56,324 nucleotides of DNA from contig CAYMRH010000003.1 of the NCBI GenBank assembly GCA_964392785.1, positions 1 through 56,324 on the forward strand. Direction: 5' to 3'. Positions 7,626 through 47,963 of the stretch are shown one piece after another. Origin of the DNA: an uncultured Brevinematales bacterium. GTDB lineage: Bacteria > Spirochaetota > Brevinematia > Brevinematales > JAOACQ01. Numbering within the stretch: the stretch's first letter is position 1; each line of letters opens with the position of its first letter. The translations under genes were made by a program, and so were the position numbers. The notes under the pieces are model-generated. The model was not told the DNA's origin, ran no database searches, and was given only the letters and a program-made list of their open reading frames with translations.

Positions 7626-7689
7626 GGTGTTGGCTCCAACAAATATTGATCTGCTGTTATTTTAGCCGTTCGCCCGGCCCTTCGATATA

Positions 7690-7985: not shown

Positions 7986-8639
7986 CTACTTCCCGATCCG
8001 GTACCTCAGCCACACCGACCCGTCGGGCAGGGTTTCGGTGTGGAACAAAGTGACCGGCACGGTTTTTCCGCCCTTTTCCAGGTCGGGCGCGATGAAGATC
8101 CCGCTGTTGGTCTGCCCGCCCACAAGATAGGGGCACACCAGAAGGGAGAGTTCGTCCGCCAGGCCCTCGCGCAGGAGCGCCCCGTTGAGCGGCCCGCCGC
8201 TGTCCGTGCGGATGGTCTCGATGCGGTATTTCTTGCGGAGTTCTTCGAGGGCGCGGCGCAGGTCCACGAATTTTTTTCCGGCGCGGATGTAGGGCACGCC
8301 CAGGGACTTGAGAAAGGCGATGTGGTCTTCCGGAGTAATTTCCGAAACGAGGACGATCACGTCCTTCCAGAACGGTTCGCTGCGGATGCGCTCCAGGTTT
8401 TTCACCTGGCCCCGCGTGTCCACGATCACGAGCCACTGTCCGCTCGTCTTTTCCGCGTCGCGGGCCGGCGGTTTGCGGCCGTTGTCCCGGTAGGCGGCCA
8501 GGATCGTGCCGCTTCCGGACAGCATGGCGTCGGCCTGGAAGCGTCCGGCCAGTTCGTAGTAGAGGGCAATGTCGCCGCGGAAATGGTCCAGCCGTCCGTC
8601 CACGCTCACGGCGTTATGGATGATGACTTTCGGGAGCAA
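7986..8639 (-). CDS. RibD C-terminal domain / dihydrofolate reductase-like pyrimidine reductase family protein
   Basis: 217 aa. MLPKVIIHNAVSVDGRLD... and GGPLNGALLREGLADELSLLVCPYLVGG match the RibD_C reductase fold. Confidence 0.7.
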   Translation of the reverse strand: MLPKVIIHNAVSVDGRLDHFRGDIALYYELAGRFQADAMLSGSGTILAAYRDNGRKPPARDAEKTSGQWLVIVDTRGQVKNLERIRSEPFWKDVIVLVSEITPEDHIAFLKSLGVPYIRAGKKFVDLRRALEELRKKYRIETIRTDSGGPLNGALLREGLADELSLLVCPYLVGGQTNSGIFIAPDLEKGGKTVPVTLFHTETLPDGSVWLRYRIGK

Positions 8640-8773
8640 AACAACCTCCCGCGGAATATTTCACCACGAAGCCACAAAGAGCACGAAGATCATCTTTCGA
8701 ACACGGGCAGACACCAATTTTATCTTTCTCTTTGTGACTTTGAGTCTTTGTGGTTTAAGGAATCTATTGATTC

Positions 8774-9715
8774 TTATTTCTGGTCTCGAGACTCGGCAGA
8801 AGCCGGATTCATCCGGCCGAATTCCATGGTCCAGCACAGCGTGCCGGAGAGCGCGGCGATCAGGTTGTACTGCAGGCCCAGGGAAATCCGCGTGGGGATG
8901 CCGAACACGCTAAATCCGGAAAAATTCAGACCGCCGGTGGCGTTCCAGCCGCCGTATTCCAGGGTATAATTCCCGCCCGCCAGAAATGAAAATCCCGGCG
9001 TCACGCGGTATTCCAGTCCCGCCTTGAGCGTTTTGTAGTCTCCGTCCAGCGAAAAGGCGGCCATCAGGTCCAGGGCGGACAGCCGGTACAGCAAGGCGGC
9101 TTCCGCAAAAAAGGCGCGGATGTCAGACAGCCCGGCTGAAACCCCCACAAACAGGAAATCCAGCGCGTTCCACTGGCCGTATGCCCGCGCGCCGCCAACG
9201 GGATTGAACATGTAGGTGTATTCGGGAATCAGTTCCAGCCCGGCGTAAACGCCGGCACCGGCTAGCCAGCGGCCCGTTCTTAAAAAAGTCCACTGCCCTT
9301 TCAGGGCGAAAGAAAACGGAAAAACCATGTTGGAGGCGCCCGTGTCGTCATACGCGACAAAACCGGGCAGGTAAATCATGTCCGCGGCGAACGCCGTGTC
9401 CGGCAGTAAATCCGAAATCGTGAAGGTGTTCCGGAGCGCGGAAAAGTAAAACCAGGACGTGGCGATGTCCAGACGGCTCACGCGGTCCTGCGGCAGGCCC
9501 CGGTCCAGGGACAATATGCCGCCTGTGGCGATCACGTCCGTGCGGTTGGGCAGGAAGAATTCGGAGGAAAACAGCCCGTAGGCCGGCGTCCCGCCCGAAA
9601 AACTAACGGACCACCAGAACAGGATGGCGCACAGAAGAGGCGTCCACCGACACCACCAGGAAATAGATCCCCGGCTGGACGGTGCGCCCGAACTGGTCTT
9701 GACCATTCCAGACAT
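8774..9715 (-). CDS. Putative outer-membrane beta-barrel protein, possibly a PorP/SprF-like partner of the upstream T9SS-CTD cargo
   Basis: 313 aa with alternating hydrophobic residues, Gly/Tyr/Phe-rich, aromatic C-terminal region. A signal-peptide-like stretch (WTPLLCAILFWWSVSFSGG) lies downstream of a long N-region. The N-terminal ~37 codons overlap the 3' end of the S8 peptidase gene, so the start is uncertain. Confidence 0.45.
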   Translation of the reverse strand: MSGMVKTSSGAPSSRGSISWWCRWTPLLCAILFWWSVSFSGGTPAYGLFSSEFFLPNRTDVIATGGILSLDRGLPQDRVSRLDIATSWFYFSALRNTFTISDLLPDTAFAADMIYLPGFVAYDDTGASNMVFPFSFALKGQWTFLRTGRWLAGAGVYAGLELIPEYTYMFNPVGGARAYGQWNALDFLFVGVSAGLSDIRAFFAEAALLYRLSALDLMAAFSLDGDYKTLKAGLEYRVTPGFSFLAGGNYTLEYGGWNATGGLNFSGFSVFGIPTRISLGLQYNLIAALSGTLCWTMEFGRMNPASAESRDQK

Positions 9716-33391: not shown

Positions 33392-33480
33392 GTTTTTAGC
33401 CGCAGAGACACGGAGGACGCAGAGTTTACATAATAGTAGGGGCTATGAGCCCCTCTGGCCCCAAGTATTTTTTTCGCCTC

Positions 33481-33693
33481 GCCGGCGTGGCCATAAGGGG
33501 GCCTGCCCCCTTAAACCCCGGGTGCGCGCGGTGCCCTCTCACGGGCAGGACATTGCGAAAGAAACGCGCGGGGGTAAGAATCGCAAACACTCGCCATCGT
33601 GGCGAGGGTTTGCTCATCGAAAGACATCCTGTCTTTCTTAGAAATACTTCGTTTCCTTCACGGAGTAGAATCGAGGGCACAGCGCCGGAAGCA
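33481..33693. repeat. Left ~215 bp inverted repeat bounding the AT-rich island
   Basis: GCCGGCGTGGCCATAAGGGGGCCTGCCCCCTTAAACCCCGG...TGCGAAAGAAACGCGCGGGGGTAAGAATCGCAAACACTCGCCATC...CTTCACGGAGTAGAATCGAGGGCACAGCGCCGGAAGCA. About 75% identical to the reverse complement of 44400-44626. Contains the hairpin TAAGGGGGC-ct-GCCCCCTTA. Confidence 0.6.
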
Positions 33694-33722
33694 AGAACGG
33701 AGAAGGAGTATTAGATATCCAT

Positions 33723-36218: not shown

Positions 36219-36245
36219 CTACTTAATTTTTATAGCATTGTAATA

Positions 36246-37751
36246 TTAAGCATTATCTGAATCCATGGGACGAATCATCGATTCGATGAACTCAATATCC
36301 TTGTCACTTAAACCAAAATGCGAGTATAACATTTTATCTGTCCATTTCTTTTTCATATTCATTTTTGGAACAAATGCAAATCTATCCTTTGTTATATGTT
36401 GCGTGTTTTTCCGCAACCCAACAAGAAATCTTACAAATCTTGTTCTTATATATCTGTTTAAATTATCCGCTTCATCCTGATTATCGTATGCACCAACGAC
36501 AATATATGTTTCGGTGCAGGCGCTCATAGGGGGCGCAATTATTGGTTTTCCCATAATCATACGTGGATAATCTCTGGTTTCACCGCCCTCACCATAGCCC
36601 ATAGATAGAAACACTTTCCATAAAGGAATTAATTCAAAACCATTTTCTATATCCTTTCTTTCGATCTTACCAACAGTTTTATTGGCATATAGCTTAATAT
36701 TACCTTTACCAGTTGGTTTGATAAACGTCCTTAGTCCGAAAGGTTTTTGCCGGGATACTTGTTCGCTGAGCGATGGATATTTTTTCTCCAATACCTTATC
36801 AAGGATTGATATCGCTTTGTTAAAACGGACAAATGTATCAAATTGATTAAGCTTTCGTTTCATCGAGTCTTCATTGTTATTCATATTTGTCGTAACAAGA
36901 CAGTCTCCTTGGTAATCGCGTTCCCATAAGAAGTAACAAACACCGCCAATAACTTTTACTCCGGGAAATACATCCGATGCAATAGGATAATCAACCAATC
37001 TTGATATTCTTTTATCATTCAACATGCTGTCTCTGAATTCATCAAGGCCTTTGCCTCCTGCAAACCAACGCGAAGGAATAATAAAGCTGAGATATCTTGG
37101 ATTTAATTTCTTGGCAGTATTGACAAATAATTGATAAATTGGGGATGAGCCTGTGCTATCACCGGCATCACTCAATTGATACGGCGGGTTGCCTACAATC
37201 ACGTCAAATTTCATATTAAATAACTCCTCCGTCTGTTCGGTATGGATAAACTGATACGCATGCGTTTCCAGCGTTTCGCCGCGATCATATTCAACTTGGC
37301 TTGCGCCACAATAAACACATTTACCGTCTTCCCATTTGTGTTTGATGCTTTTAAACATGATATTGCCAACTTCATTTGTAAAAGCACTGCAAACGGAATA
37401 CTTTCCATCCGCTATTTTTGAACAGTATAGCGACCTTCGTGATAAAAGAGCGGTCAGCTCGGTAATGGCAATACCGAATATCTGTTTGGTGTAAATATGA
37501 TTTAGACGCTTTTGCATACTCGGAATTTCTTTTTCAAGACCCGCAATAAGCCGTTTGGCGATTTCCCGCAGGAATACGCCTGATTTTGAAACAGGATCAA
37601 GAAATGTCACATTTTTGTTTTTCCAGAGATCTGCAGGCAGTAAATCCAGTATTCTGTTGGCCAACTGTGGCGGTGTAAACACCTCGTCACTACTTAAATT
37701 GGCAAGGCAAGATAAAACATCCGGGTTATAGCCGGTATTAATCAGCATCAA
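36246..37751 (-). CDS. N6-adenine DNA methyltransferase (gamma-class, Eco57I/TaqI-like), 501 aa
   Basis: Motif X DEVFTPPQLANRIL, motif I FLDPVSKSGVFL and motif IV FDVIVGNPPYQ. The C-terminal half is a probable target-recognition region. Confidence 0.75.
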   Translation of the reverse strand: MMLINTGYNPDVLSCLANLSSDEVFTPPQLANRILDLLPADLWKNKNVTFLDPVSKSGVFLREIAKRLIAGLEKEIPSMQKRLNHIYTKQIFGIAITELTALLSRRSLYCSKIADGKYSVCSAFTNEVGNIMFKSIKHKWEDGKCVYCGASQVEYDRGETLETHAYQFIHTEQTEELFNMKFDVIVGNPPYQLSDAGDSTGSSPIYQLFVNTAKKLNPRYLSFIIPSRWFAGGKGLDEFRDSMLNDKRISRLVDYPIASDVFPGVKVIGGVCYFLWERDYQGDCLVTTNMNNNEDSMKRKLNQFDTFVRFNKAISILDKVLEKKYPSLSEQVSRQKPFGLRTFIKPTGKGNIKLYANKTVGKIERKDIENGFELIPLWKVFLSMGYGEGGETRDYPRMIMGKPIIAPPMSACTETYIVVGAYDNQDEADNLNRYIRTRFVRFLVGLRKNTQHITKDRFAFVPKMNMKKKWTDKMLYSHFGLSDKDIEFIESMIRPMDSDNA

Positions 37752-38409
37752 TTAGCCTCAGAAAATGAGTAACGGGGTACTCTCTGACAGGATCGGGTAT
37801 AAATACATCATCCCCTAGGTCGGAAAAAAGCGGCTCGCTCTTTATTTCTTCATGGGCTAAAAGTCCGTGAAAAGTAAAATCGCGCCTTTTGATATTGCTT
37901 CCATTAACGGGCGACCATTCGGAAAATGTGATGGGATTCTGAGTCACCCCAACGGTTTTAAGAGTCAGCGCGTCGCCCCAAATGATATTTTTACTTAATA
38001 TGAACTTGACCGAATCGAGGCATTCTTTCTTGATCTGATTTTGGAATATAGTCACATATCTTTCATTAAATATCTCGAAAAGACGGTTCCGGCAGTCCTG
38101 AACGTTATCTTCCAGAATATCGATGCCGTAAACACTGGAAATAACCAAAACGGCATTACGCTCATATTCAATCTGGCTTTTAGCATACTTCGTTTCAACC
38201 ATGCTTAATTTGCGCCGGAGAATTACGGCTAAAAAGTTGCCTGCTCCACAGGCCGGTTCCAGAAAACGGGATTCAATTCTTTCCGTTTCTTGTTTGACAA
38301 GATCCAGCATAGCATTGACTTCCCGCGACGCGGTATAGACCTCGCCGTGGTCAGTTACACGCTGTTTGGAAACGACTTGGGATGCTTGTTTCATTTGCGT
38401 CATATTCAA
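37738..38409 (-). CDS. Truncated methyltransferase-like paralog (SAM-binding motifs X and I present, catalytic NPPY absent), 223 aa
   Basis: HGEVYTASREVNAMLDLV (motif X-like) and FLEPACGAGNFL (motif I). No NPPY/DPPY; the corresponding position reads NIIWGDAL. Overlaps the downstream MTase gene by 14 nt. Confidence 0.55.
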   Translation of the reverse strand: MNMTQMKQASQVVSKQRVTDHGEVYTASREVNAMLDLVKQETERIESRFLEPACGAGNFLAVILRRKLSMVETKYAKSQIEYERNAVLVISSVYGIDILEDNVQDCRNRLFEIFNERYVTIFQNQIKKECLDSVKFILSKNIIWGDALTLKTVGVTQNPITFSEWSPVNGSNIKRRDFTFHGLLAHEEIKSEPLFSDLGDDVFIPDPVREYPVTHFLRLIDAD

Positions 38410-39143
38410 TTCAATTGCCTTTCTTTTTTACTTAACTTATCGTTATCAATAATATAGTATTCGAGAGTTTGATTATTCTTTGTATTCTTATTCTTAAGAA
38501 TATTCAGAAATACAAAACCAGCTAAAGCCTGATGGTCTCTGATGGCATGTTTAAAATTGATAAAATGAAGAATTATTAGTACAACAGCAATTACTATAAC
38601 ACAAGTATCTTTGAAAATTATTGATCTAGAAACAATGCACAAAGTTATTAATAACCAGGCCGCTAATGCTGAAATTGAGGCAATACATATTGTACCTAGC
38701 GAGGTTGAAACATCTGCCAATCTTTTCATTCTGGTAATATCATATTTAAAATTCGTATTCGCTTTTGAATGATCAATCACTGAATTTACGATTAAATACG
38801 ACCTTTTCTTTTGATTAACAAGTTTAATATTATCTTTGTAATTATTAAATATAATTAGATTATTATTTACAGCATAATCAACAATATCATTGAAATTGCT
38901 TGAATAACATGAACGCCAAACAAAAGCATAATATATTACACCAAATATAAAACCTAATCCTCCAGAAGCAAGTAAGCCAGAAAGTATAATAATTGCATTT
39001 CCGAGCGAACCATTAACTAGTAATGAATGAAAATAATTGAGAACAGTATAACGATCTGATGAAAGTAAAAAATATAATATCAATTCAACAAAAAACACCA
39101 GGCTCGGTAAAATATAGCGAAAATAGCTTTGCATATCTTTCAT
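38406..39143 (-). CDS. Hypothetical polytopic membrane protein, 245 aa
   Basis: At least 4 predicted TM helices. AT-rich codon usage matches the island. 4 nt start/stop overlaps with both neighbouring genes. Confidence 0.5.
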   Translation of the reverse strand: MKDMQSYFRYILPSLVFFVELILYFLLSSDRYTVLNYFHSLLVNGSLGNAIIILSGLLASGGLGFIFGVIYYAFVWRSCYSSNFNDIVDYAVNNNLIIFNNYKDNIKLVNQKKRSYLIVNSVIDHSKANTNFKYDITRMKRLADVSTSLGTICIASISALAAWLLITLCIVSRSIIFKDTCVIVIAVVLIILHFINFKHAIRDHQALAGFVFLNILKNKNTKNNQTLEYYIIDNDKLSKKERQLN

Positions 39144-39757
39144 GATATGATAACCCCATATTCCTTCTGAAGCAATGATATTTCATTAGGTAACTTATAG
39201 TCTAAATCATTAATGAACTCGATTATTTCGCACACATGAAGAGTCTTTTTATTGTGAATTGGCAGGGCAATGTATTCGATTGGAATAACAATATTTATTA
39301 GATAATCAAGAGCCTCCTCGCTCCAATATCTTTTAGCCAAATTAACATCCAATAAACCGCTTTCAACAAAAACCTTAATGTTCATAAAATAATTAATTAT
39401 CTTTCTTCTGTAAGCATCTAAATTATTGTCATTATTTGAAGAATTTATACACTCAAGATATTTATTAACTAAAATAATTAATTTATCCTTCTTTACTATA
39501 TCAGTATCATCACTATAAATATAGCATTTATGATCCCTTGCAAAATCACAAAGTGATTTTATTGCTTGGTGCATATCTTTGGTTGAATATTGTTCAACTG
39601 CCTTAATAAAGTTGTTGTATTTTGTATCTTTTCTTGATTTTAAGATTGTGTATATTGATAAAATGAAAGCAAGCAACGCAATGATTACATCCGCATGATT
39701 TATGAGTAATCTGATTGGCCATAGAAGCCAATTAACAATAGTACAAAGATTGCCCAT
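39140..39757 (-). CDS. Hypothetical membrane-anchored protein, 205 aa; first gene of the island operon
   Basis: N-terminal TM helices (LCTIVNWLLWPIRLLINHADVIIALLAFILSIYTIL) and a soluble C-terminal domain with no recognised motif. Confidence 0.5.
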   Translation of the reverse strand: MGNLCTIVNWLLWPIRLLINHADVIIALLAFILSIYTILKSRKDTKYNNFIKAVEQYSTKDMHQAIKSLCDFARDHKCYIYSDDTDIVKKDKLIILVNKYLECINSSNNDNNLDAYRRKIINYFMNIKVFVESGLLDVNLAKRYWSEEALDYLINIVIPIEYIALPIHNKKTLHVCEIIEFINDLDYKLPNEISLLQKEYGVIIS

Positions 39758-39976
39758 ACATATCCAACTATTTATTATAATGCAATCACATTATACCCCC
39801 TCCCCCTCCATCTCGTCAAAGCATGATTAGGATTCAGGATATAGGATTTAGGGTTCAGAGGGGTAGGCAGGTCCTTGTTAGGGTCTAGAGGCCAAGATTT
39901 GGGATTCAGGGGGATAGACGGGTCATAGTAGGGATCAGAGGACTGGATTTAGATTTAGATAAAATATTCCGCTTGT

Positions 39977-40147
39977 CTAGAGTAATGATAAAAATACTGT
40001 AATGATAATTATTACTAAAAATAATACAACAGGAATAAGAATTAATAGTTGGCAACCGGTTAATTTTAATTTTGCGCCACAATTCGGACATATTTTTGCG
40101 CTAGAACTGATTTCTTTACCACATTCTCTGCAATTGACTAGAGCCAC
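39977..40147 (-). CDS. Small zinc-ribbon membrane protein, 56 aa, below the ORF-track cutoff
   Basis: Hand-translated: V(GTG)ALVNCRECGKEISSSAKICPNCGAKLKLTGCQLLILIPVVLFLVIIIITVFLSLL*. A CxxC-x12-CxxC zinc ribbon plus a C-terminal TM helix. AGGAG lies 6 nt upstream of the GTG. The overlapping 61 aa ORF listed at 39906..40091 is judged spurious. Confidence 0.35.
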   Translation of the reverse strand: MALVNCRECGKEISSSAKICPNCGAKLKLTGCQLLILIPVVLFLVIIIITVFLSLL

Positions 40148-40187
40148 ACCGCTCTCCTTTCAGCTCGTTTTCTAAGCGAAACCAATT

Positions 40188-40540
40188 ATACCCCCTCCCC
40201 CGCCCCGGCGTCAAAGCATTATTAGGATTCAGGGTCTAGGATTTAGGGTTCAGTTATATATTAACCAGCTGGCTGCCCCTAAATCCTGGATCCTGACCCA
40301 TAAACTGCCCTTAAAAACGAGGTCATCGGCCCAAATAACGAGGCTGTCCTCCTTAATAACGAGGACAACGCCCTTCCGAACGAGGTTACCGGCCTTCGGA
40401 ACGGCAATGCCGGGGTTCAGAAGGAGGATATCCTCCCTTTTCAGGGGAACAGCGGGGTTCTGAGGGGGAATGGCCTCGCTTTTTGGGGGAATAGTGGGGT
40501 TCTGAAGACCAATTTCGGGGTTTTGGCAGCCGCAGTGACA
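40188..40540. repeat. Composite repeat copy A upstream of the small zinc-ribbon gene: ATTATACCCCCTCCCCC box, TTAGGR-like degenerate repeats, then a 21 bp tandem array
   Basis: CCAATTATACCCCCTCCCCCGCCCCGGCGTCAAAGCATTATTAGGATTCAGGGTCTAGGATTTAGGGTTCAG at 40188-40260. About ten ~21 bp units follow from 40315 (AACGAGGTCATCGGCCCAAAT, AACGAGGCTGTCCTCCTTAAT, AACGAGGACAACGCCCTTCCG, AACGAGGTTACCGGCCTTCGG, ...GGGAATAGTGGGGTTCTGAAG). Confidence 0.55.
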
Positions 40541-40935
40541 CAGAGACGCAGAGGATAACCCTCGTCGAAGTTTATCCTGAGCGAGCGTTGAAAGCGCGAG
40601 TCGAAGGGCTAGGGATGACCATGCTCGTTTCCTGACGTCAGAGGCGCTTGGAGCGCCGGCCGCGTAGCGCCACGGACGCTCCTAAGAGGCGGGCTGGGCT
40701 CTGACTAAAGTGTCAGGTGAATACTCTCACGGTACAATTAATCATTTAACTCTACCTTTATAACTCTTTTCAAGAAATACCCCACAATGTTCTCACATAA
40801 CTGTTCGGGGCTTGGCGTAATGGGCGCTTTTCAGCACAAAACTTGATAAGAAACACAGTGTTTATATTTAGCACATAATTTCAAACGAAATACGTCCGCC
40901 CCTATTACATCAAGCACTTGTTAACGGTTCAAGTA

Positions 40936-43608
40936 TTACTGTAATTTTATTGTTTTTTTACAGTTGGGATAATTCGTGCAACCTAAGAAATCTCCATATT
41001 TCCCTGTTCTCTTTATCATATAGCCGCTATAGCAATTTGGGCAGAGGATTTCATCATCTAATATTTCTAAATTGTTAAACGTTTGATCGCAATTAGGATA
41101 ATGTGAACAGCCTAGAAAGTGAGTGCCATTTGATGGGTTTTGTCTAATAATAAGCTTCCCTGTTTTACAGTATGGACAATTTGTAGTTTTGAGCGATCCG
41201 TCAGCAGAAGTTAACAAATAAATATTATCATTTATTATTTCTTCAATAAATAATGAAGGTTCAGTCGGGGTAAGTAATACAACCTCATTTTTAGTTCTTG
41301 TTAACGCTACATAAAACAACCTACGTTCCTCCGCAAATCTAAACTCTTCGTCATCACTGAGCAAAAGAGATAAGATTGGGTCGTCAGTCATTTTATTGGG
41401 AAATCCAAGCAATTGATTCTTAAGATTTAATACGATTACATTGTCCGCCTCAGTTCCTTTTGACTTGTGTACGGTTAAATATTTAATGTCCATATCTTCA
41501 AATCCTTTAACTACTAATTTACCAGTTCTCTCAATGTATTTAACCCTACTATTTGTGGTTTTCTTTATTAATTCGTTAATATCAAACCCATGTCTGCCTA
41601 AAACTAAGATTGATTTGCTTCCATATCTATTTACAAGATTTTGTATTTCGTTTATGAATGAATCTTCCATCTCTTCTTGCGTGTAATAAACAATTCTAAC
41701 AGGGTCTTTCAAAGGTTCTTTCTTAGACTTAGGGGATTTTGATATTTGTTTGGGATTTTTTTGAATGTATTTTGATGCAATGTCAATAAGTGCTTGTGAA
41801 TTTCTGTATGTCTGTTCAATCAATAGTTGTTCATGTATTCCTAGGTATTTTTCGAAATTACTGAATAAAGATATATCGCTACCTGCAAAACGATAAATCG
41901 ATTGCCAATCGTCTCCAACACAAATCAATTTTGCACCAGATAAATCACGAATTTCCTTGATCAAATGAAATCGTGAATACGAAATGTCTTGATATTCATC
42001 TACTATTATATACTGATAGTTGAATTTTATTTTATTACTTTTTATGATACCAGTAGCCATATTTATCATATCATTGAAATCAATCTCATTTCTTTCTTTT
42101 AAAGTTTGGTCGTATTTTTCAAGAATTGGAAGCGCAAATTGCAAGAACATTGCTTGACGTTCTAGCATAAAGTCGCTTTGGAATTTTGTTTTATCCGAAA
42201 ACAATTTGACTAACGAAATCTTGTTTAAACCTCTTGATTTACTTAGATTAACAAAGCTTTCAATAAGGTTATTAATTTCCTTGCCGATATTTATGTCATT
42301 GATCGATATTTCTGTGTAAATTATTTTTGGATCTCTCGGCTTGAAAGCAACCTTTTCCGCTTCCAACATTTCCTTCAGCTTCTTTAACAATATTTTATCT
42401 CTATTGTAATAGGAATATGTTTCTAGTAATTTGGTGCCGTAGGCTTTGTGTGTTTCCCTTTTTAATTGCATAGTTTCTAAATATTTTTGTTCATTAAAAG
42501 GTGTGAGCCATTTTGCCCGATTATATTCGTCTACGCCAAAATGTTCTAAATATATTTCATAATCTGTTAGAAAAAAGTCAGGACGATACATTGCCTGTCC
42601 ATAAGGGTATGGTTTTTCATACTCATACTCAACTCCATTCAGATATAAATAGTTAGCTATTATTAGTTCCTCAACACTTTTAACCCTCTCTCCTTGCATG
42701 GTATTTAGATTTGGTTTTGAAACGATGTTTGAAGGTTCGCATTTTGATTTCAATGTTTGAAAATCAATCCCCTTTTCTGTATCTATTTTTTCTCCCAAAG
42801 ACTTGTAATTGTCAAATTCTTCAGGAATATTCATATAGCATGCAACGTATTGAATAAAAGATTGCAATGCTTCCATATCGTTGAAAATGTCTGTTTTTAA
42901 ATACTCTTTGATCACTCCACTCATTGTGTTTTCATTTGTAACGGCAGGAATGACCGAATAGTATTTTTTTATTATATCATAACCAAGTTTATGAAAAGTA
43001 GTTGCCAGTGCACCAAATCCTAATTTATGAATTCTTTCATTTAACTCTTCTACGGTTTTTTTTGTAAAAGATAATAACAAGATGTTATTGGGATTGATAT
43101 TTTTCTGTTCAATTAGATATTTCACTTTTCCAAGGATTGTAAGTGTTTTACCCGAACCCGCACCAGCAATTATTAAATTCGAGTATTCGTCTGTTATCAA
43201 TGCAGTCCGTTGCTGATCATCTAGCTTTTTTCCTTCGATATTGTCAAAATACTTTTCTAATATTTCTTTTTGTTTATTAACGTAATTTTGGTTATATCGA
43301 GCAATATATCCGTCAAAATCACTGAATATATCATTAAATGTCTTAACGGTTTCTTCTTTCTTGTAATAATAAGTTTTGTTAGCAAAATACTTACTCACAT
43401 CCGAATATTCTGTTTTTATCTGGTCACGGTGTACCCAAGTAACATAATCGTTAAGTGATTGAATACGATGAATAAATTCAGTAATCAGTTGTAAGTTCTC
43501 TAAATAAACAGCGTCTTGATACTTTCTCCTTTCAGATAGTTGCTGGAAAACAATAGAGAAAGCAATTATCACAAACAGGGCGAAAATAAGAGTTAGAATC
43601 GTAACCAC
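40936..43608 (-). CDS. Membrane-anchored UvrD/Rep-family (SF1) helicase with an internal restriction-endonuclease-like insert and two C-terminal topoisomerase-type C4 zinc ribbons, 890 aa
   Basis: N-terminal TM helix VTILTLIFALFVIIAFSIVF. Motif I LIIAGAGSGKTLTILGK and motif II YQYIIVDEYQDISYSRF. Insert around ...YRPDFFLTDYEIYLEHFG... . The C-terminus reads NCPYCKTGKL...GCSHYPNCD and LCPNCYSGYM...GCTNYPNCK. Confidence 0.7.
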   Translation of the reverse strand: MVTILTLIFALFVIIAFSIVFQQLSERRKYQDAVYLENLQLITEFIHRIQSLNDYVTWVHRDQIKTEYSDVSKYFANKTYYYKKEETVKTFNDIFSDFDGYIARYNQNYVNKQKEILEKYFDNIEGKKLDDQQRTALITDEYSNLIIAGAGSGKTLTILGKVKYLIEQKNINPNNILLLSFTKKTVEELNERIHKLGFGALATTFHKLGYDIIKKYYSVIPAVTNENTMSGVIKEYLKTDIFNDMEALQSFIQYVACYMNIPEEFDNYKSLGEKIDTEKGIDFQTLKSKCEPSNIVSKPNLNTMQGERVKSVEELIIANYLYLNGVEYEYEKPYPYGQAMYRPDFFLTDYEIYLEHFGVDEYNRAKWLTPFNEQKYLETMQLKRETHKAYGTKLLETYSYYNRDKILLKKLKEMLEAEKVAFKPRDPKIIYTEISINDINIGKEINNLIESFVNLSKSRGLNKISLVKLFSDKTKFQSDFMLERQAMFLQFALPILEKYDQTLKERNEIDFNDMINMATGIIKSNKIKFNYQYIIVDEYQDISYSRFHLIKEIRDLSGAKLICVGDDWQSIYRFAGSDISLFSNFEKYLGIHEQLLIEQTYRNSQALIDIASKYIQKNPKQISKSPKSKKEPLKDPVRIVYYTQEEMEDSFINEIQNLVNRYGSKSILVLGRHGFDINELIKKTTNSRVKYIERTGKLVVKGFEDMDIKYLTVHKSKGTEADNVIVLNLKNQLLGFPNKMTDDPILSLLLSDDEEFRFAEERRLFYVALTRTKNEVVLLTPTEPSLFIEEIINDNIYLLTSADGSLKTTNCPYCKTGKLIIRQNPSNGTHFLGCSHYPNCDQTFNNLEILDDEILCPNCYSGYMIKRTGKYGDFLGCTNYPNCKKTIKLQ

Positions 43609-43689
43609 AATTTATCTTCCCGAATTATGTTTATGTTACATCGGGTTTGTTTCTTTTGCCTGACCGCTAACTCATATATATACGAATCC

Positions 43690-44120
43690 CATTATACCTC
43701 CTCCCCCTCCGCAGCGTCAAAACCATATTAGGATTCAGGGGCTAGGGTTTAGGATTTAGGAGGGTAGGCAGGTCCTCATTAGGGGCCAGTATTTAGGATA
43801 CAGGGAAATATGCACCAACTGATGTGTTCCTGAATCCTAATCCCTAAAACCCGACCCCTAAACTCTAACCCCTAAATCCTAGACCCTAACCACCACCCCC
43901 GGAACCCTAAAACCTGAATCCTGACCCCTAACATGGCCTACGGAAGGGGAACGTTGCCACTCTGAACGCCATCATTGCCCTTCCGGATAGCAACGTTGCC
44001 CTACAGAACGAGGACATTGGCCTTCCGGACCCCAACGTCGGGGTTCAGAAGGAGGATGTCCTCCCTTTTTAGGGGAATAGTGGGGTTCTGAGGACCAATT
44101 TCGGGGTTTTTTGGTCGTAA
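43690..44120. repeat. Composite repeat copy B upstream of the UvrD-like helicase gene; includes an inverted block of TTAGGR repeats
   Basis: CATTATACCTCCTCCCCCTCCGCAGCGTCAAAACCATATTAGGATTCAGGGGCTAGGGTTTAGGATTTAGG... at 43690-43800. CCTAAATCC/CCCTAAAAC units read in the opposite direction at 43830-43930 (potential long hairpin). 21 bp array at 43940-44120 (AACGCCATCATTGCCCTTCCGG, AACGAGGACATTGGCCTTCCGG, ...GGAATAGTGGGGTTCTGAGG). The 3' part is near-identical to 40400-40540. Confidence 0.55.
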
Positions 44121-44399
44121 ACCACAAAGACACAAAGGAACACAAAGTCAGCTGCGGAGGGCGCGGAGAGCCGGAGGGTTGCCCTCGACCGCCCCCTTCG
44201 ACACGGCCGCCGCGGTGAGCCGCGTCGAACCGTCAGGGCATCGCCTCGGTCGCGGTTGGCGAGCGGAGCCTGCGGTGAGCGAAGCCGAGACTTTTACACC
44301 GAGCCTTGCCCCGAGCAACGTCGAGGGGTAGCCGAGGTGCCATCCTGGCTCCCGTGCACTGGCGCTAGAACATCCATGTTCGCGCCAGTACCTACGGCC

Positions 44400-44626
44400 T
44401 CGTGCCTCCGGCGCTGTGCTCACGATTCTACTCCGTGAAAGAAACGAAGCGTTCCTGAGAAGGGCAGGATGCCCTTCGATGAGCGCACCCTCCGCAGGAT
44501 GCGGAGTGTGCGCGATTCCCACCCCCGTGAGTTTCTTTCACAACGCTTTGCCCATGAAGAGAGCATAGCGCGATTCCGGGGTATAAGGGGGCGGGCCCCC
44601 TTAATGCCGGCGCGGCGAGCGCACGC
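44400..44626. repeat. Right ~225 bp inverted repeat bounding the AT-rich island
   Basis: Reverse complement aligns with 33481-33693 at about 75% identity. Contains the hairpin TAAGGGGGC-gg-GCCCCCTTA and CGATTCTACTCCGTGAAAGAAACGAAGCG, which matches CTTCACGGAGTAGAATCG in the left copy. Confidence 0.6.
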
Positions 44627-44653
44627 CAGCCCGGCGAGGGCACTCCAGCGGTG

Positions 44654-45499
44654 TCACCGCACAATCACATTATCAATCAACCTCGTCTTTCCAAAAAACA
44701 CCGCCAGGGCGATCACCGCTCCGCCGGTCACGGCCTTCAGGTCCTCCAGGGTTTCCGGGTCCGCGACGCTCACGTAGTCGATCTTCGCGTAGGGAATTTC
44801 CGTCCGGATCATGTCCCGCACGGTTTTGACGATCACCGAGGCGTCCCGTTCCCCCGTCCGGATCATGTCCGAACCGGCCGTCAGCGCCTGCCAGAGCACG
44901 GGCGCGTCCTTTCGTTCTTTTTCGCTCAAGTACCGGTTTCGGGAACTCATGGCCAGCCCGTCTTTTTCCCGCACCACCGGCATGACCCGGACCTGAACGG
45001 GCATGTTCAGGTCCTGGACCATTTTCCGGATAATCACGGATTGTTGGTAGTCCTTCTGCCCGAAGTAGGCCGTAGCGGGCCGGACAATATTGAACAATTT
45101 GGCCACCACCGTGGTCACGCCGCGGAAATGCCCCGGCCGGGACAGACCGCACAGGTGGTCGGGCAATTCTTCCACGTCCACGTACGTTTCAAATCCTTCC
45201 GGATACATGTGCCTTGCGGACGGGTAAAAAAGAAAATCGCATTTTTCCTTTTCCAGAAGCGCTTTGTCGTTTTCGAACGGCCGGGGGTAGCGGCTCAGAT
45301 CCTCGGCGGGACCGAACTGGGTCGGGTTGACGAAAATGCTCGCCACGACAATATTATTTTCCTTTCGCGCCTGCCGGACCAGGCTCAAATGCCCCTCGTG
45401 CAGGGCGCCCATGGTGGGAACGAACCCGATGGTCTTTTTTTTCCGGATCAGTTGCTCGGACAGGACCGACATTTCGGAAGGCTTCTTGATGATTTTCAC
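44654..45499 (-). CDS. panC: Pantoate--beta-alanine ligase
   Basis: 281 aa. FVPTMGALHEGHLSLV and the downstream FVNPTQFG are PanC signatures. Confidence 0.9.
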   Translation of the reverse strand: MKIIKKPSEMSVLSEQLIRKKKTIGFVPTMGALHEGHLSLVRQARKENNIVVASIFVNPTQFGPAEDLSRYPRPFENDKALLEKEKCDFLFYPSARHMYPEGFETYVDVEELPDHLCGLSRPGHFRGVTTVVAKLFNIVRPATAYFGQKDYQQSVIIRKMVQDLNMPVQVRVMPVVREKDGLAMSSRNRYLSEKERKDAPVLWQALTAGSDMIRTGERDASVIVKTVRDMIRTEIPYAKIDYVSVADPETLEDLKAVTGGAVIALAVFFGKTRLIDNVIVR

Positions 45500-45521: not shown

Positions 45522-45854
45522 TCATTGGTTCAGGAGTTTATCAATGGATATTTTCAATTTGGGAATTTCATCACGGATAGCGCTCCAGACCAGCGCCAGG
45601 TTGACGCCAAAATACTCGTGAATCAGTTTGTCTCGCATGCCGGTGATCTTACGCCAGGGAATGTCCGGATGCCCGGGTTTTTCACCGTCCGGGATGCTTT
45701 TAGCGGCTTCGCCGATGATTTCAAGACTTCGGATAAAGGCCCGCTGTTTCAACTCATCATTTTCCAAATCCTTAAAGGTCATGGCATTCGTTTCGCGAAG
45801 CAGGAATTCATTTTCCTTCGCAATGTGAGAGCAATAGAATTTATAGTTTTTCAT
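45522..45854 (-). CDS. HepT-like (DUF86) toxin, nucleotidyltransferase substrate-binding protein
   Basis: 110 aa. RDKLIHEYFGVNLALVW is the DUF86/HepT Rx4HxY motif region. Confidence 0.75.
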   Translation of the reverse strand: MKNYKFYCSHIAKENEFLLRETNAMTFKDLENDELKQRAFIRSLEIIGEAAKSIPDGEKPGHPDIPWRKITGMRDKLIHEYFGVNLALVWSAIRDEIPKLKISIDKLLNQ

Positions 45855-46137
45855 ATCTGACTTCTTTCATGATCTCGGGAAGGATCAGGGGGCTGATTTG
45901 TTCCTGCGTGAGAAGATCCACTTTCTTCTGAAAAGAGTCTTCCAGAAGAAAATAGAGCTCCATATAATGATCGAAACTGAGCTGGTCCGGCTTGAATTTG
46001 ACCAGGAGGTCTATGTCGGAATCCTCTTTTTGATCGCCCCGGGCGTAGGAACCGAACACGCCGATTTCCGATACGCCGAAATTCCTGATGGCTTCCCGGT
46101 TTTTCCTGAGAACATCTTCGATATCCCGCAGCGTCAT
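45841..46137 (-). CDS. MNT-type minimal nucleotidyltransferase antitoxin
   Basis: Start ATG at 46137 (MTLRDIEDV...) overlaps the pyrG stop (ATGA). Motif GVFGSYARGDQKEDSDIDLLV. 14 nt overlap with hepT. The listed longer ORF would overlap pyrG. Confidence 0.75.
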   Translation of the reverse strand: MTLRDIEDVLRKNREAIRNFGVSEIGVFGSYARGDQKEDSDIDLLVKFKPDQLSFDHYMELYFLLEDSFQKKVDLLTQEQISPLILPEIMKEVRYEKL

Positions 46138-47963
46138 GACGCGGAAGCCCCCGTTTTTTTGTTCCTGTATTTCAGCGCGGCGCCGATGAAGCTCGCGAAG
46201 ACCGGGTGCGGATCGATGGGAGAGGACTTGAATTCCGGGTGGAACTGGCCTCCCAGAAACCACGGGTGGTTCTTGATTTCCACCATCTCCACCAGCCCCC
46301 CTTCCGCCACGGCGCTCACGGACAGGCCCTTCTGCTGCAGCGTTTCCACGTAGTCGGGGTTCACCTCGTAGCGGTGGCGGTGGCGTTCCTCGATCTCCTC
46401 TTTCTGGTACACCTCGAACGCGAGCGATCCGCGCTGGATTTTCGACTTGCTGGCGCCCTTGCGCATCGTGCCGCCCATATAGACCACGTTTTTCAGGTTG
46501 GCCAGGAGTTCGATCACGGGGTTTTCAGCCGTCTCCACGAATTCCCGGGAATGCGCGCCGGCAATGCCGCACACGTTCCGCGCGTATTCGATCACCATGC
46601 ACTGCAGGCCCAGGCAGATGCCCAGGGTGGGAATCCCGTTCTCGCGCGTGTGGCGGATGGCCTTGATTTTGCCCTCGATGCCGCGGCTGCCGAACCCGCC
46701 GGGAACGAGAACGCCGTCGATCTCGTCGGAAATGAGCCCCTTGTAGCCGGTCGCCTTGAGGACGGCCTTGACCCGCTGCAGGTCCCTGTCGGTAATGTCT
46801 TCCTCCAGCACGCAGAAGCCGGTGGCCGTGTCGCGGTAATACATGTCGTCCAGGAAGTCCCGGTCGGCTTCGTCCGGGATTCTGTTCAACAGGCTTTCAA
46901 AGTGGTCCACGGCGGCCTGTTTCAACACGCCGTTCTCGTAGATCTCCCCCTCCAGGGACTCGGCGTCCACCTTGCGGATGGTCACTCCCACCCGGTTGGC
47001 AATCCCGCCGTGTTTCAGCGCGGCGTCCACGGACTTGTAGGTGTCTTCCAGGTTGATGTATTTGCCGATCATGGCTATGGTCACGCGCTCGGCGGGGTTG
47101 GATTCAATGTCCACCATCTTGCGCCATTTGGTCAGGTCCGGCTTGCGAACGGGGAGTCCCAGCTTGTCCAGGATGGTTCGGTCCGCGCCCTGGCTATGGA
47201 AAATGAGCGGGACTTCGTGCACGGTCTTTTTGACGTCCACAGCGGTGAAGATGCACTCCTCCTCGATGTTGCAGAAGAGCGCCATCTTGGTCTTGAGCGA
47301 CGCGGGCATCATGACTTCGCAGCGGCAGAACAGGAAATCCGGCTGGATCCCCATGGACATGAGTTCCTTCACGGAATGCTGGGTGGGCTTGGTCTTGAGC
47401 TCCCCGGAACCCTTGATGGTGGGCACCAGCGTCAGGTGGGCGAATTTTACGTTGGCGCGCCCTTCCTGGATGGAGAACTGGCGCACGGCCTCGATGAACG
47501 GCAGGCCCTCGATGTCCCCCACCGTTCCGCCCAGTTCCACGATGATGACGTCGGAATCCTTGCCCTCGTCCAGCACGCGGATGCGGCGCTTGATTTCGTC
47601 CGTGATGTGGGGAATCACCTGCACGGTCTCGCCCAGGTAGTCCCCGCGCCGTTCGGCGTCTATGACCGTCTGGTACACCTGGCCTGTGGTCAAACTGGAG
47701 AGTCGGGAGGTCTGGACCCGCACGTAGCGCTCGTAGTTGCCCAGGTCCAGGTCGGTTTCGGCCCCGTCGTCGGTCACGTACACTTCCCCGTGCTGGTAGG
47801 GGCTCATGGTGCCGGCGTCCACGTTCAGGTAGGGGTCGATCTTCATCATGTTGATCTTGTAGCCGGCGGCCTTGAGGAGGACGCCGATGGAGGCCGCCGT
47901 GACACCCTTGCCCAGGGAGGAACAGACCCCGCCCGTCACGAAAATGTACTTTTTACAGGCCAT
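46134..47963 (-). CDS. pyrG: CTP synthase
   Basis: MACKKYIFVTGGVCSSLGKGVTAAS N-terminus. Glutamine amidotransferase C-terminal domain (GICLGLQ). Confidence 0.9.
   Translation of the reverse strand: MACKKYIFVTGGVCSSLGKGVTAASIGVLLKAAGYKINMMKIDPYLNVDAGTMSPYQHGEVYVTDDGAETDLDLGNYERYVRVQTSRLSSLTTGQVYQTVIDAERRGDYLGETVQVIPHITDEIKRRIRVLDEGKDSDVIIVELGGTVGDIEGLPFIEAVRQFSIQEGRANVKFAHLTLVPTIKGSGELKTKPTQHSVKELMSMGIQPDFLFCRCEVMMPASLKTKMALFCNIEEECIFTAVDVKKTVHEVPLIFHSQGADRTILDKLGLPVRKPDLTKWRKMVDIESNPAERVTIAMIGKYINLEDTYKSVDAALKHGGIANRVGVTIRKVDAESLEGEIYENGVLKQAAVDHFESLLNRIPDEADRDFLDDMYYRDTATGFCVLEEDITDRDLQRVKAVLKATGYKGLISDEIDGVLVPGGFGSRGIEGKIKAIRHTRENGIPTLGICLGLQCMVIEYARNVCGIAGAHSREFVETAENPVIELLANLKNVVYMGGTMRKGASKSKIQRGSLAFEVYQKEEIEERHRHRYEVNPDYVETLQQKGLSVSAVAEGGLVEMVEIKNHPWFLGGQFHPEFKSSPIDPHPVFASFIGAALKYRNKKTGASAS

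What the first reader, a model, noticed from the sequence alone, without database searches (positions are those of the whole stretch)
40936..43608. Membrane-tethered UvrD-family helicase with a nuclease-like insert and two topoisomerase-type zinc ribbons, framed by long direct repeats
The 890 aa protein starts with a TM helix, has SF1 motifs (GAGSGKT, DEYQD), a restriction-endonuclease-fold-like insert (YRPDFFLTDYEIYLEHFG region) between motifs I and II, and two C-terminal CxxC...GC.HYPNC zinc ribbons of the topoisomerase I type. A nuclease-related domain with a UvrD helicase and a zf-C4_Topoisom domain is a recognised co-occurrence, but a membrane anchor on such a protein is unusual. The gene sits alone between two ~430 bp composite direct repeats (40188-40540 and 43690-44120), so it could be deleted or duplicated by homologous recombination. 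It may be a stand-alone defense or repair gene, or a cassette captured separately from the upstream operon.
Basis: partly seen in the sequence, partly recalled or inferred. Interest (0 to 1): 0.7.

Follow-up and report, generated by a model that had tools for sequence, protein, structure and literature searches.

The report
Membrane-anchored helicase-nuclease in defence island
The gene encodes a membrane-tethered DNA helicase with a built-in DNA-cutting domain and two zinc fingers, belonging to a large uncharacterised family that sits alone among anti-phage genes and mobile elements, so it is a good candidate for a new single-protein defence against invading DNA.

Summary
ORF 40936-43608 (minus strand, 890 aa) has an N-terminal hydrophobic helix, intact SF1/UvrD motifs, a ~260-aa insert between motifs I and II, and two Top1-type zinc ribbons. 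The insert core (residues 307-399) is a confident PD-(D/E)xK nuclease fold of the Vsr / T7 endonuclease I type, with nine residues invariant across 123 divergent relatives. The helicase core is closest to DNA helicase IV but scores below the equivalog cutoff.

The protein is not unusual within its family. 113 of 120 close homologs (68-79% identical; named ones mostly Bacteroidota) keep the anchor, and 119 of 120 keep both ribbons. It has no conserved neighbour. It lies next to Gabija, Qat, Avs4, type I R-M and DpdF-like genes, inside integrative or conjugative elements, and on 82 plasmids.

Here it is a 28-37% GC cassette in a ~10.7-kb foreign island of a ~59% GC Brevinematia genome. The "direct repeats" are real, but the core has three copies. 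Each carries a near-consensus sigma-70 promoter facing a minus-strand gene.

Best reading: a horizontally acquired, stand-alone, membrane-localised helicase-nuclease acting on entering foreign DNA. This function is inferred, not shown.

The parts
40936..43608 (-). Helicase-nuclease gene, 890 aa, GTG start
   Evidence: ORF. Pfam finds UvrD-helicase, AAA_19, UvrD_C and Zn_ribbon_Top1. An identical protein, P0001, is in NCBI.
43537..43605 (-). N-terminal single-pass membrane anchor (residues 2-24), predicted N-out/C-in
   Evidence: Kyte-Doolittle hydropathy 2.96 over 19 residues, followed by RRK. AF2 predicts a helix at 2-29. Conserved in 113 of 120 close homologs and in essentially every intact close genomic homolog. 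Topology is inferred from the positive-inside rule.
43234..43521 (-). Helical juxtamembrane domain (residues 30-125), function unknown
   Evidence: AF2 predicts helices with pLDDT of about 70-90. Many columns are invariant in A1. No Pfam or PADLOC hit.
42898..43224 (-). Helicase domain 1A, N-terminal half (residues 129-237), with Walker A GAGSGKT at 149-155
   Evidence: Pfam UvrD-helicase stretch 129-237. Aligns to PcrA residues 12-102.
42109..42897 (-). Insert at the position of the 1B domain (residues 238-500): a helical scaffold plus the nuclease domain
   Evidence: It lies between the two PcrA-aligned blocks, query 215 and 489 against PcrA 102 and 170. It is present in 1,279 cluster representatives at E<=1e-10.
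42412..42690 (-). PD-(D/E)xK nuclease core (residues 307-399), Vsr / T7 endonuclease I-like. Candidate active site: E314, D344, E355, H356, K383
41239..42108 (-). Helicase domain 1A C-terminal half and 2A (residues 501-790), with motifs II-VI and no 2B domain
   Evidence: DEYQD at 537-541, GDDWQSIYRF, TYRNS, TVHKSKGTE and VALTRTK are invariant in A1. Only about 65 residues correspond to PcrA 325-559.
41083..41184 (-). Zinc ribbon 1, topoisomerase I type (residues 809-842)
   Evidence: Pfam Zn_ribbon_Top1. C811, C814, C834 and C840 are invariant.
40942..41049 (-). Zinc ribbon 2, topoisomerase I type (residues 854-889)
   Evidence: Pfam Zn_ribbon_Top1, best stretch 855-889. C856, C859, C877 and C883 are invariant.
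43683..43760 (-). Promoter module copy 3, in front of the helicase: heptamer array, TTGACG (43720-43715), 18-nt G-rich spacer, TATAAT (43696-43691)
   Evidence: Matches 11 of 12 positions of the sigma-70 consensus, joint best in the 11.4-kb island. Aligned with copies 1 and 2.
43761..44114 (.). Upstream part of the composite repeat: 7/14-bp arrays in both orientations and 42-bp repeats
40177..40530 (.). Composite repeat copy 2 (promoter core 40185-40214 on the minus strand, plus heptamer inverted repeat and 21/42-bp arrays), in front of the small zinc-ribbon/TM ORF
39784..39888 (-). Promoter module copy 1 (partial repeat; -35/-10 at 39819-39790), in front of the five-gene DUF4760 / membrane protein / R-M operon
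40531..40935 (.). Non-coding spacer between the helicase stop codon and repeat copy 2. Its left half has intermediate GC (about 51-56% per 200-nt window)
   Evidence: Fine GC profile. No credible ORF. No other long match in the window.

Best explanation
The gene encodes a stand-alone, inner-membrane-tethered SF1 (helicase IV-like) DNA translocase. A Vsr / endonuclease I-type PD-(D/E)xK nuclease is nested where UvrD-type helicases carry domain 1B, and two topoisomerase-I-type zinc ribbons sit at the C-terminus.

Proposed mechanism:
1. The N-out/C-in anchor holds the whole catalytic body at the cytoplasmic face of the membrane (inferred).
2. The zinc ribbons bind single-stranded DNA or DNA ends. 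This role is inferred from my own knowledge of topoisomerase I C-terminal domains.
3. The ATP-driven motor, which lacks the 2B domain, translocates along and unwinds the DNA (homology).
4. The embedded nuclease cuts the strand or branch point passing the 1B position (inferred).

The gene always occurs alone, among varied anti-phage systems and on integrative, conjugative or plasmid DNA. Its most likely role is therefore to destroy DNA that enters at the membrane (phage injection or conjugation). Self/non-self discrimination would come at least partly from location, as shown for SNIPE.

In this window it is a foreign low-GC cassette inside a mosaic island of a Brevinematia genome. It is likely expressed from one of three copies of a near-consensus sigma-70 promoter module that was duplicated in front of each acquired transcription unit.
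For: Architecture.

Nuclease fold and homology.

Catalytic-type residues E314, D344, E355, H356 and K383 are 100% invariant in 123 representatives, one per 50%-identity cluster. All helicase motifs and all 8 Cys are invariant in the 36-sequence alignment of close homologs.

The anchor is conserved in 113 of 120 close homologs and in 47 of 82 divergent representatives. At least one zinc ribbon is present in 67 of those 82.

No conserved partner gene in 80 loci.

Neighbours are defence genes:
- Qat and an AAA_15/21 pair between integrases
- an AAA_13 ATPase gene, with relaxase and T4SS coupling-protein genes further downstream
- Gabija
- Avs4 and a PDC-S37/Hhe-like protein, a DpdF-like fusion, and type I HsdR
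- GIY-YIG and 2x DUF262, and multiubiquitin/ThiF, on plasmids
- in the window itself, a split type IIG-like R-M.

Mobility: 82 plasmids carry relatives, 52 of them mobilizable or conjugative.

Horizontal acquisition: the gene's 200-nt windows are 28-37% GC against about 59%. The host PyrG is Brevinematia-like, while the named helicase relatives are mostly Bacteroidota. The island is absent downstream of panC in two relatives.

Promoter modules.

Precedent for localisation-based defence: SNIPE, PMC13190303.
Against: - No experiment and no published test of this family was found. A defence function rests on guilt by association.
- The lysine of the canonical (D/E)xK triad is F357 here, which aligns to K67 of T7 endonuclease I (residue number from my own knowledge; alignment). 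Catalysis would need K383 or H356 instead, so the domain could be a DNA-binding module only.
- The full-length model is mediocre (pLDDT 67), so the position of the nuclease relative to the DNA path is not established.
- The TM segment was judged by hydropathy and AF2 only. No dedicated topology predictor was available.
- 35 of 82 divergent relatives lack a TM-like segment, so membrane location cannot be essential to the whole superfamily.
- The family is not a PADLOC family of its own. Its whole-protein hits there are generic UvrD-core (GajB) hits.
- The context survey covered about a dozen loci in detail, without a genome-wide background control.
Confidence: 0.55

Rival explanations
1. It serves the mobile elements that carry it rather than the host. 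Possible roles are processing or protecting transferred DNA, entry exclusion or competition against rival plasmids and ICEs, or replication restart of the element at the membrane.
For: Relatives are frequent on plasmids: 82 records, 52 of them conjugative or mobilizable. One homolog sits a few kb from relaxase and T4SS coupling-protein genes, and another sits between integrases. The family is essentially absent from curated phage genomes.
Against: Defence systems are also typically carried by such elements, so this context does not discriminate. There is no conserved linkage to relaxase, T4SS or replication genes in 80 loci. In the window there are no transfer or replication genes at all.
Confidence: 0.2
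2. The nuclease-fold insert is catalytically dead and only binds DNA, for example branched or mismatched structures. The protein would then be a membrane-bound translocase or sensor rather than a DNA-degrading effector.
Against: E314, D344, E355, H356 and K383 are invariant across 123 divergent representatives. That pattern is what an active site with a relocated lysine would show. Vsr itself lacks the canonical Lys and is active (my own knowledge of the enzyme).
Confidence: 0.15
3. It is the host's housekeeping DNA helicase IV (HelD) orthologue, involved in repair, recombination or RNA-polymerase recycling.
For: The best NCBIfam model is PRK11054 DNA helicase IV (E 1e-100). JGI names many homologs 'DNA helicase IV'. 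HelD-RNAP structures appear in the fold search.
Against: The score of 338 bits is below the equivalog cutoff of 543. There is no Helicase_IV_N hit. The gene is 28-37% GC in a 59% GC genome and is absent from the same position in related genomes. There is no conserved synteny. The taxonomic distribution is patchy and about 8 of 80 loci carry frameshifted or truncated copies. The nuclease, the anchor and the zinc ribbons lie outside the two regions matched by the helicase IV model (437-797 being the best).
Confidence: 0.05
4. The flanking repeats act mainly as recombination substrates that let the helicase cassette be deleted or amplified (on/off variation), rather than as promoters.
For: Direct repeats with blocks of 83-89% identity bracket the gene. 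Truncated or frameshifted copies of the gene are common elsewhere.
Against: The longest uninterrupted blocks are only about 70-100 nt at 83-89% identity, which is a poor substrate for homologous recombination. The conserved core coincides exactly with an 11/12 sigma-70 match placed 26-76 nt upstream of three start codons. No variant contig was available. The module was found in no other public sequence.
Confidence: 0.1

Closest known systems
DNA helicase IV (E. coli HelD; NCBIfam PRK11054) within the UvrD/Rep/PcrA SF1A class
   Same: It is the best-scoring curated family (E 1e-100), and all SF1 motifs are present. It has no 2B domain, and an insertion interrupts domain 1A.
   Different: It scores below the equivalog cutoff (338 against 543 bits). 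The membrane anchor, the PD-(D/E)xK nuclease in the insert and the two zinc ribbons lie outside the matched regions of the helicase IV model. It is horizontally mobile and non-syntenic.
Single-protein or two-protein helicase-nuclease defence systems: Hhe (helicase plus Vsr endonuclease), Gabija GajA/GajB, Nhi, Hna
   Same: It combines a helicase with a nuclease and lies in defence islands. Hhe also uses a Vsr-type nuclease (bioRxiv 10.1101/2022.06.16.496414). GajB is a UvrD-type helicase.
   Different: Hhe is about twice the size, with its nuclease at the C-terminus (active-site residue E1731). The PADLOC Hhe model exists but was not hit by the insert. There is no GajA partner here. The nuclease is nested inside the motor domain, and the protein is membrane-anchored. 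Nhi and Hna were recalled from memory only and were not tested.
SNIPE (membrane-bound GIY-YIG nuclease that cleaves phage DNA during injection; PMC13190303)
   Same: An N-terminal single-pass anchor, predicted N-out, holds a cytoplasmic nuclease-bearing body. It is a single-gene system. The TM segment is present in a majority of homologs but not all (59% in SNIPE, 57% of divergent representatives here).
   Different: There is no DUF4041 and no GIY-YIG domain. The nuclease fold is different and an ATP-driven helicase is present. No evidence of interaction with phage or host membrane proteins exists.
Phage T7 endonuclease I and Vsr / DUF559-type PD-(D/E)xK nucleases
   Different: The canonical Lys position is Phe or Tyr. 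There is an invariant His next to the Glu and an invariant Lys in helix 2. The domain is embedded in a helicase rather than free-standing.
NERD-UvrD-zf-C4_Topoisom proteins
   Same: It combines a restriction-endonuclease-fold domain, a UvrD helicase and Top1-type zinc ribbons.
   Different: Pfam detects no NERD domain even at E<=10. The nuclease belongs to a different family and sits inside the helicase, not at the N-terminus.

Membership tests
UvrD/Rep/PcrA SF1A helicases | Pfam UvrD-helicase and UvrD_C above gathering score; motifs I (GxGKT) and II (DExQD) | tested here: met
   150.4 bits against a cutoff of 23, and 63.8 against 25.6. GAGSGKT is at 149 and DEYQD at 537. PcrA is matched at 4e-31.
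UvrD/Rep/PcrA SF1A helicases | Four-subdomain layout including a 2B domain | tested here: not met
   Only about 65 residues (643-708) correspond to PcrA 325-559. AF2 shows only short strands there.
DNA helicase IV (HelD), NCBIfam PRK11054 equivalog | Whole-protein score at or above the curated cutoff (543 bits) | tested here: not met
   338 bits. The best stretch is 437-797 against profile positions 344-679.
DNA helicase IV (HelD) | Helicase_IV_N N-terminal domain | tested here: not met
   No such Pfam hit for the whole protein or for residues 1-141 at E<=10.
DNA helicase IV (HelD) | Vertically inherited housekeeping gene with stable neighbourhood | tested here: not met
   No conserved neighbour in 80 loci. 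It lies in a low-GC island that is absent in relatives.
PD-(D/E)xK (restriction-endonuclease-like) nucleases, Vsr / endonuclease I branch | alpha-beta-beta-beta-alpha-beta core fold | tested here: met
PD-(D/E)xK nucleases | Acidic residues: E in helix 1, D at strand 2, E/D in strand 3 | tested here: met
   E314, D344 and E355 are 100% invariant and align to the corresponding positions of T7 endonuclease I.
PD-(D/E)xK nucleases | Lys two residues after the strand-3 acidic residue | tested here: not met
   This position is F357 (85% F, otherwise Y). The invariant K383 and H356 are possible substitutes.
PD-(D/E)xK nucleases | Metal-dependent DNA cleavage | not testable with these tools
   Needs biochemistry.
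NERD domain (PF08378) | Match to the Pfam model | tested here: not met
   No family at E<=10 for residues 225-511.
Zn_ribbon_Top1 (PF01396) | Pfam score above gathering; four Cys ligands | tested here: met
   73.6 bits against a cutoff of 32, in two stretches. All 8 Cys are invariant.
Gabija (GajB) | UvrD-type helicase encoded next to a GajA ATPase-TOPRIM nuclease | tested here: not met
   GajB models hit only the shared UvrD core. No GajA gene lies in the island. Where Gabija is adjacent elsewhere, it has its own GajB.
Hhe | Match to the Hhe model; very large protein with a C-terminal Vsr domain | tested here: not met
   The PADLOC Hhe model (1911 positions) exists. It is not among the hits of the insert at E<=1 or among the top 25 hits of the whole protein. 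Lower-ranked hits were not shown.
SNIPE | DUF4041 plus a GIY-YIG nuclease behind an N-terminal TM helix | tested here: not met
   Neither domain appears in Pfam. Only the anchor topology is analogous.
Single-pass membrane protein (N-out/C-in signal anchor) | Hydrophobic helix of about 20 residues, positive charges on the cytoplasmic side, experimental localisation | tested here: inconclusive
   Hydropathy of 2.96 and the RRK flank fit, and the feature is conserved. No dedicated predictor and no experiment were available.

The most novel reading that the evidence does not exclude
This family is a widespread, so far unnamed single-protein immune system. It uses its membrane anchor to meet foreign DNA at the point of entry, loads on it through Top1-type zinc ribbons, reels it in with an ATP-driven SF1 motor and cuts it with a nuclease built into the motor. 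This would be a motorised counterpart of SNIPE that tells self from non-self by location. In this genome it would have been domesticated by a duplicated host-type promoter module that drives foreign cassettes.
Probability: 0.3. Interest if true: 0.75.

Novelty: new variant of a known kind. Interest (0 to 1): 0.5.

Why it matters
Helicase-nuclease proteins are a recurring solution in bacterial immunity, but how they spare the host chromosome is mostly unknown. A large family (1,279 cluster representatives carry the insert at E<=1e-10) combines a motor, an embedded nuclease, ssDNA-binding fingers and, in most members, a membrane anchor. That offers a directly testable case of discrimination by location, a principle shown so far only for SNIPE. 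The family is compact (one gene, 890 aa), highly conserved and easy to transplant, so it is experimentally tractable.

The locus also shows how a high-GC spirochaete may express low-GC foreign genes: the same near-consensus promoter module is copied in front of each acquired unit.

Tried and rejected
- Pfam on the insert alone and on the N-terminal 141 residues at E<=10 gave nothing useful.
- A single-sequence PDB search with the insert gave only noise. The profile search was needed.
- The full-length AF2 model has pLDDT 67, and its Foldseek hits only restate the UvrD class.
The host had to be inferred from PyrG.
- The window's genome is not among the loci returned by the reference-genome scan.
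- Scans for the promoter module in metagenome contigs (two patterns) and in viral contigs gave 0 hits, so its wider distribution is unknown.
- Rfam at gathering threshold on the whole window, and at E<=1 on 44100-44700, gave nothing credible. There are no tRNA genes that could mark an integration site.
- The afdb50 fold library was unavailable.
- Literature searches for helicase IV in defence, PDC-S68/S69, UvrD with a TM segment, NERD/UvrD and Hhe found no description of this architecture. One query was rejected for syntax.
- I considered the 21/42-bp arrays as coding sequence. The + strand reads as 7-residue repeats, but there is no start codon and a stop lies just upstream, and the only ORF there is a 51-aa low-complexity artefact. 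I left this unexplained.
- An integron-like cassette array was considered. No integrase gene is seen in the ORFs examined across and around the island (about 30-48 kb), and the repeats lie 5' of the genes with promoters, unlike attC sites.
Full report
**1. Observation**

The ORF at 40936-43608 lies on the minus strand, starts with GTG and encodes 890 aa. An identical protein is on record from an NCBI contig of 78,187 nt.

- Residues 2-20 have a mean Kyte-Doolittle hydropathy of 2.96 and are followed by R27-R28-K29.
- Pfam finds a split UvrD-helicase domain (129-237, resuming after the insert), AAA_19, UvrD_C and two Zn_ribbon_Top1 units, all above their curated cutoffs.
- GAGSGKT is at 149-155, DEYQD at 537-541, and YRPDFFLTDYEIYLEHFG at 341-358.
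- The two four-Cys sets are at 811/814/834/840 and 856/859/877/883.

The repeats are also real. Three collinear blocks of 83-89% identity link 40177-40530 with 43683-44114. The core words are expected 0.15 and 0.00 times by chance in the window.

**2. The insert is a nuclease domain**

Pfam has no model for the insert. Several other lines of evidence agree on what it is.
- PADLOC matches protein residues ~299-370 to a PD-(D/E)xK model (HEAT_CxxC_PDDEXK, 2e-5) and to two candidate defence families, PDC-S69 (1e-13) and PDC-S68 (2e-11).
- An exhaustive HMMER search with the insert finds 2,223 cluster representatives at E<=1e-3 and 1,279 at E<=1e-10. Most are proteins of 850-1,300 aa with the insert at the same relative position.
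- In 123 of these divergent representatives, E314, Y330, E331, P343, D344, F345, E355, H356 and K383 are 100% invariant.
- A profile of the domain hits phage T7 endonuclease I in the PDB (E 7e-4 to 0.07). The alignment places E314, D344 and E355 on T7 E20, D55 and E65 (T7 residue numbers from my own knowledge; alignment).
- A domain-only AlphaFold model is very confident (pLDDT 96.3, pTM 0.89) and has the alpha-beta-beta-beta-alpha-beta core.
- The viral structure library gives Endonuclease I, Vsr-like homing endonucleases, DUF559 and DUF2726.
- PHROGs gives a Holliday-junction resolvase family at 9e-4.

One caveat applies. The canonical Lys position (K67 of T7 endonuclease I) is F357 here. 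If the domain is catalytic, it would have to use K383 from helix 2, or H356.

**3. [quoted passage not shown]

The PcrA alignment pairs query 129-215 with PcrA 12-102, query 489-643 with PcrA 170-325, and query 708-787 with PcrA 559-626. Two conclusions follow.
- The insert occupies the place of domain 1B.
- There is essentially no 2B domain.

All helicase motifs are invariant in a 36-sequence alignment of close homologs. The best curated family is DNA helicase IV (PRK11054, E 1e-100), but its 338 bits fall below the equivalog cutoff of 543. The full-length model is only moderate (pLDDT 67), and its structural neighbours are PcrA, UvrD, Rep, AddA and HelD. Residues 30-125 form a conserved helical domain with no detectable relatives.

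**4. The family**

The 120 best database hits are full-length (about 888 aa) and 68-79% identical. Those with an organism name come mostly from Bacteroidota, plus one Chlorobaculum. They are labelled only 'UvrD-helicase domain-containing protein' or 'DNA helicase IV'. The reference-genome scan adds an Ignavibacteriae MAG to the close family. It also adds relatives at 33-47% identity in Firmicutes, Actinobacteria, Spirochaetes, Mollicutes and one Bathyarchaeia.

The anchor is the rule in this family, not an oddity.

| Set | TM-like N-terminus | C-terminal zinc ribbons |
|---|---|---|
| Close homologs | 113 of 120 | two ribbons in 119 of 120 |
| Full-length divergent representatives | 47 of 82 | at least one in 67 of 82 |

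About eight of 80 genomic loci carry frameshifted or truncated copies.

**5. Genomic context**

Clustering the three genes on each side of the helicase in the loci found no conserved partner. The largest 'clusters' are fragments of the helicase itself and recombinases.

The flanks are defence or mobile-element genes:
- QatABCD and an AAA_15/21 pair inside an integrase-bounded island
- an AAA_13 ATPase gene, with relaxase and T4SS coupling-protein genes further downstream
- Gabija
- Avs4 together with a PDC-S37/Hhe-like giant, a DpdF-like fusion, and a type I HsdR
- a pooled scan of 146 neighbours shows SNF2, ResIII, HNH, RT, OLD-TOPRIM, integrases and TnpB-like proteins.

Relatives occur on 82 plasmids, 52 of them conjugative or mobilizable. 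There they lie next to a GIY-YIG nuclease with two DUF262 proteins, or next to multiubiquitin/ThiF genes. Curated phage genomes essentially lack the family.

**6. The window**

The host is a Brevinematia-class spirochaete, judged from PyrG: the named hits at 65-71% identity are Brevinematia or Brevinematales. Its genome is about 59% GC.

The gene lies in a ~10.7-kb island (33.7-44.1 kb) with mosaic composition.

| Block | Coordinates (kb) | GC |
|---|---|---|
| R-M genes | 33.7-38.4 | 32-50% |
| Two membrane-protein genes | 38.4-39.8 | 25-31% |
| Helicase | 40.8-43.6 | 28-37% |
| Module DNA between blocks | 39.8-40.8 and 43.6-44.2 | 37-57% |

In the two nearest available relatives, pyrG-panC is followed directly by housekeeping genes. 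The island is therefore an insertion at a synteny break.

**7. The repeats**

The core has three copies, not two (39784-39888, 40177-40253, 43683-43760). Read on the minus strand, each copy is a heptamer array followed by TTGACG, an 18-nt G-rich spacer and TATAAT.

These three are the best sigma-70 matches in the whole island (11 of 12 positions each). They lie roughly 26, 31 and 76 nt (estimated 5' UTR lengths) upstream of three start codons:
- a five-gene operon (a DUF4760 membrane protein, a second membrane protein, and a split type IIG-like R-M)
- a 56-aa zinc-ribbon/TM ORF
- the helicase.

I therefore read the repeats as a duplicated promoter module that drives foreign, low-GC cassettes in a high-GC host. 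Function as a promoter is inferred from the consensus match and the position only. Recombination between copies could delete the helicase, but this was not tested. The module was not found in any other public sequence scanned.

**8. Mechanism (inferred)**

The anchor places the enzyme at the cytoplasmic face of the membrane. The Top1-type ribbons bind ssDNA or DNA ends. The 2B-less SF1 motor translocates, and the nuclease at the 1B position cuts.

The gene is stand-alone, mobile and embedded in defence islands. Together with the SNIPE precedent for location-based discrimination (PMC13190303), this favours an anti-invader role. My confidence in that role is about 0.55.

The rivals are a function serving the mobile element that carries it, a non-catalytic nuclease fold, and a housekeeping HelD. 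The last is the least likely.

**9. Comparison and novelty**

The protein is not a member of any of the following:
- HelD (below the equivalog cutoff, no Helicase_IV_N, no synteny)
- NERD-UvrD proteins (no NERD domain)
- Gabija (no GajA partner)
- Hhe (a different, much larger protein; its model was not hit)
- SNIPE (different domains).

It works most like the helicase-nuclease class of defence proteins. It has two distinctive traits: a nuclease nested inside the motor, and a membrane tether. No paper describing it was found in the searchable library. That does not prove that none exists.

I rate it a new variant of a known kind, with interest 0.5. It is a well-supported candidate and experimentally tractable. 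It is also a common database family, and its function here rests on inference.

Noticed in passing
window 33474-33696 and 44400-44618 (inverted); weaker copies at 4944-5068 and 5245-5308: The whole low-GC island is bracketed by inverted copies of a ~220-bp GC-rich element (78.6% identity over 224 nt, E 5e-49). A third, diverged copy lies next to the other low-GC gene of the window (5697-7625). The copies keep several hairpins through double (compensatory) changes: 13 of 48 predicted pairs, but from only 3 sequences. There is no Rfam match. It could be a host REP/MITE-like element, a structured RNA, or a site where foreign DNA lands.
   Followed up: partly
window 39977-40147 (-): An unannotated-size ORF of 56 aa encodes a Zn_Ribbon_1 domain (Pfam 2e-8, above cutoff) followed by a TM helix. 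It has an AGGAGA ribosome-binding site and its own copy of the promoter module.
   Followed up: partly
window 33723-39757 (-): A five-gene operon with overlapping stop and start codons runs behind promoter copy 1. It encodes a DUF4760 membrane protein (205 aa), a second multi-TM protein (245 aa), an MTase N-terminal fragment (223 aa), an Eco57I-type MTase (501 aa) and a T5orf172-ResIII protein (831 aa). The last two together match one fused PADLOC type IIG enzyme model (PDLC03626), so this is a split version.
   Followed up: partly
window 40307-40507 and 43950-44029: 21-bp and 42-bp tandem arrays lie upstream of two promoter modules. On the + strand they read as 7-residue peptide repeats but have no start codon. 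They contain GC hairpins followed by T runs. Their role is unknown (regulator binding sites, insulators or a gene remnant).
   Followed up: partly
window 45522-46263 (-): Two small genes sit between pyrG and panC and look like a nucleotidyltransferase/HEPN (DUF86) toxin-antitoxin pair, judged from motifs only (GSYARGD..DxD; RDKLIHEY). The pair is absent in relatives, where pyrG and panC are adjacent (L086, L088).
   Followed up: no
window 5697-7625 (-): A 642-aa protein with a signal-peptide-like N-terminus is encoded in a second low-GC patch (34% GC at 6-7 kb), adjacent to a copy of the GC-rich element. It is probably another horizontally acquired gene.
   Followed up: no
loci L024, L028, L029, L036, L039, L040, L050, L079: About 8 of 80 reference-genome loci carry frameshifted or truncated copies of the helicase. 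That is consistent with frequent loss of a costly accessory gene.
   Followed up: partly
L008 (= L005) 5912-9761 and L025 5429-9323: In two unrelated genomes (a Chlorobaculum MAG and a Bacteroidota MAG) the helicase lies directly next to Gabija genes: GajA and GajB in L008, GajA and a probable GajB in L025. This may be chance within defence islands or a functional pairing.
   Followed up: no
L018 5293-9933 and 12826-17514: In Flavobacterium fluviatile the helicase sits between a 1,547-aa PDC-S37/Hhe-like protein and a full-length Avs4. This is a compact three-gene defence cluster that might be worth testing as a unit.
   Followed up: no
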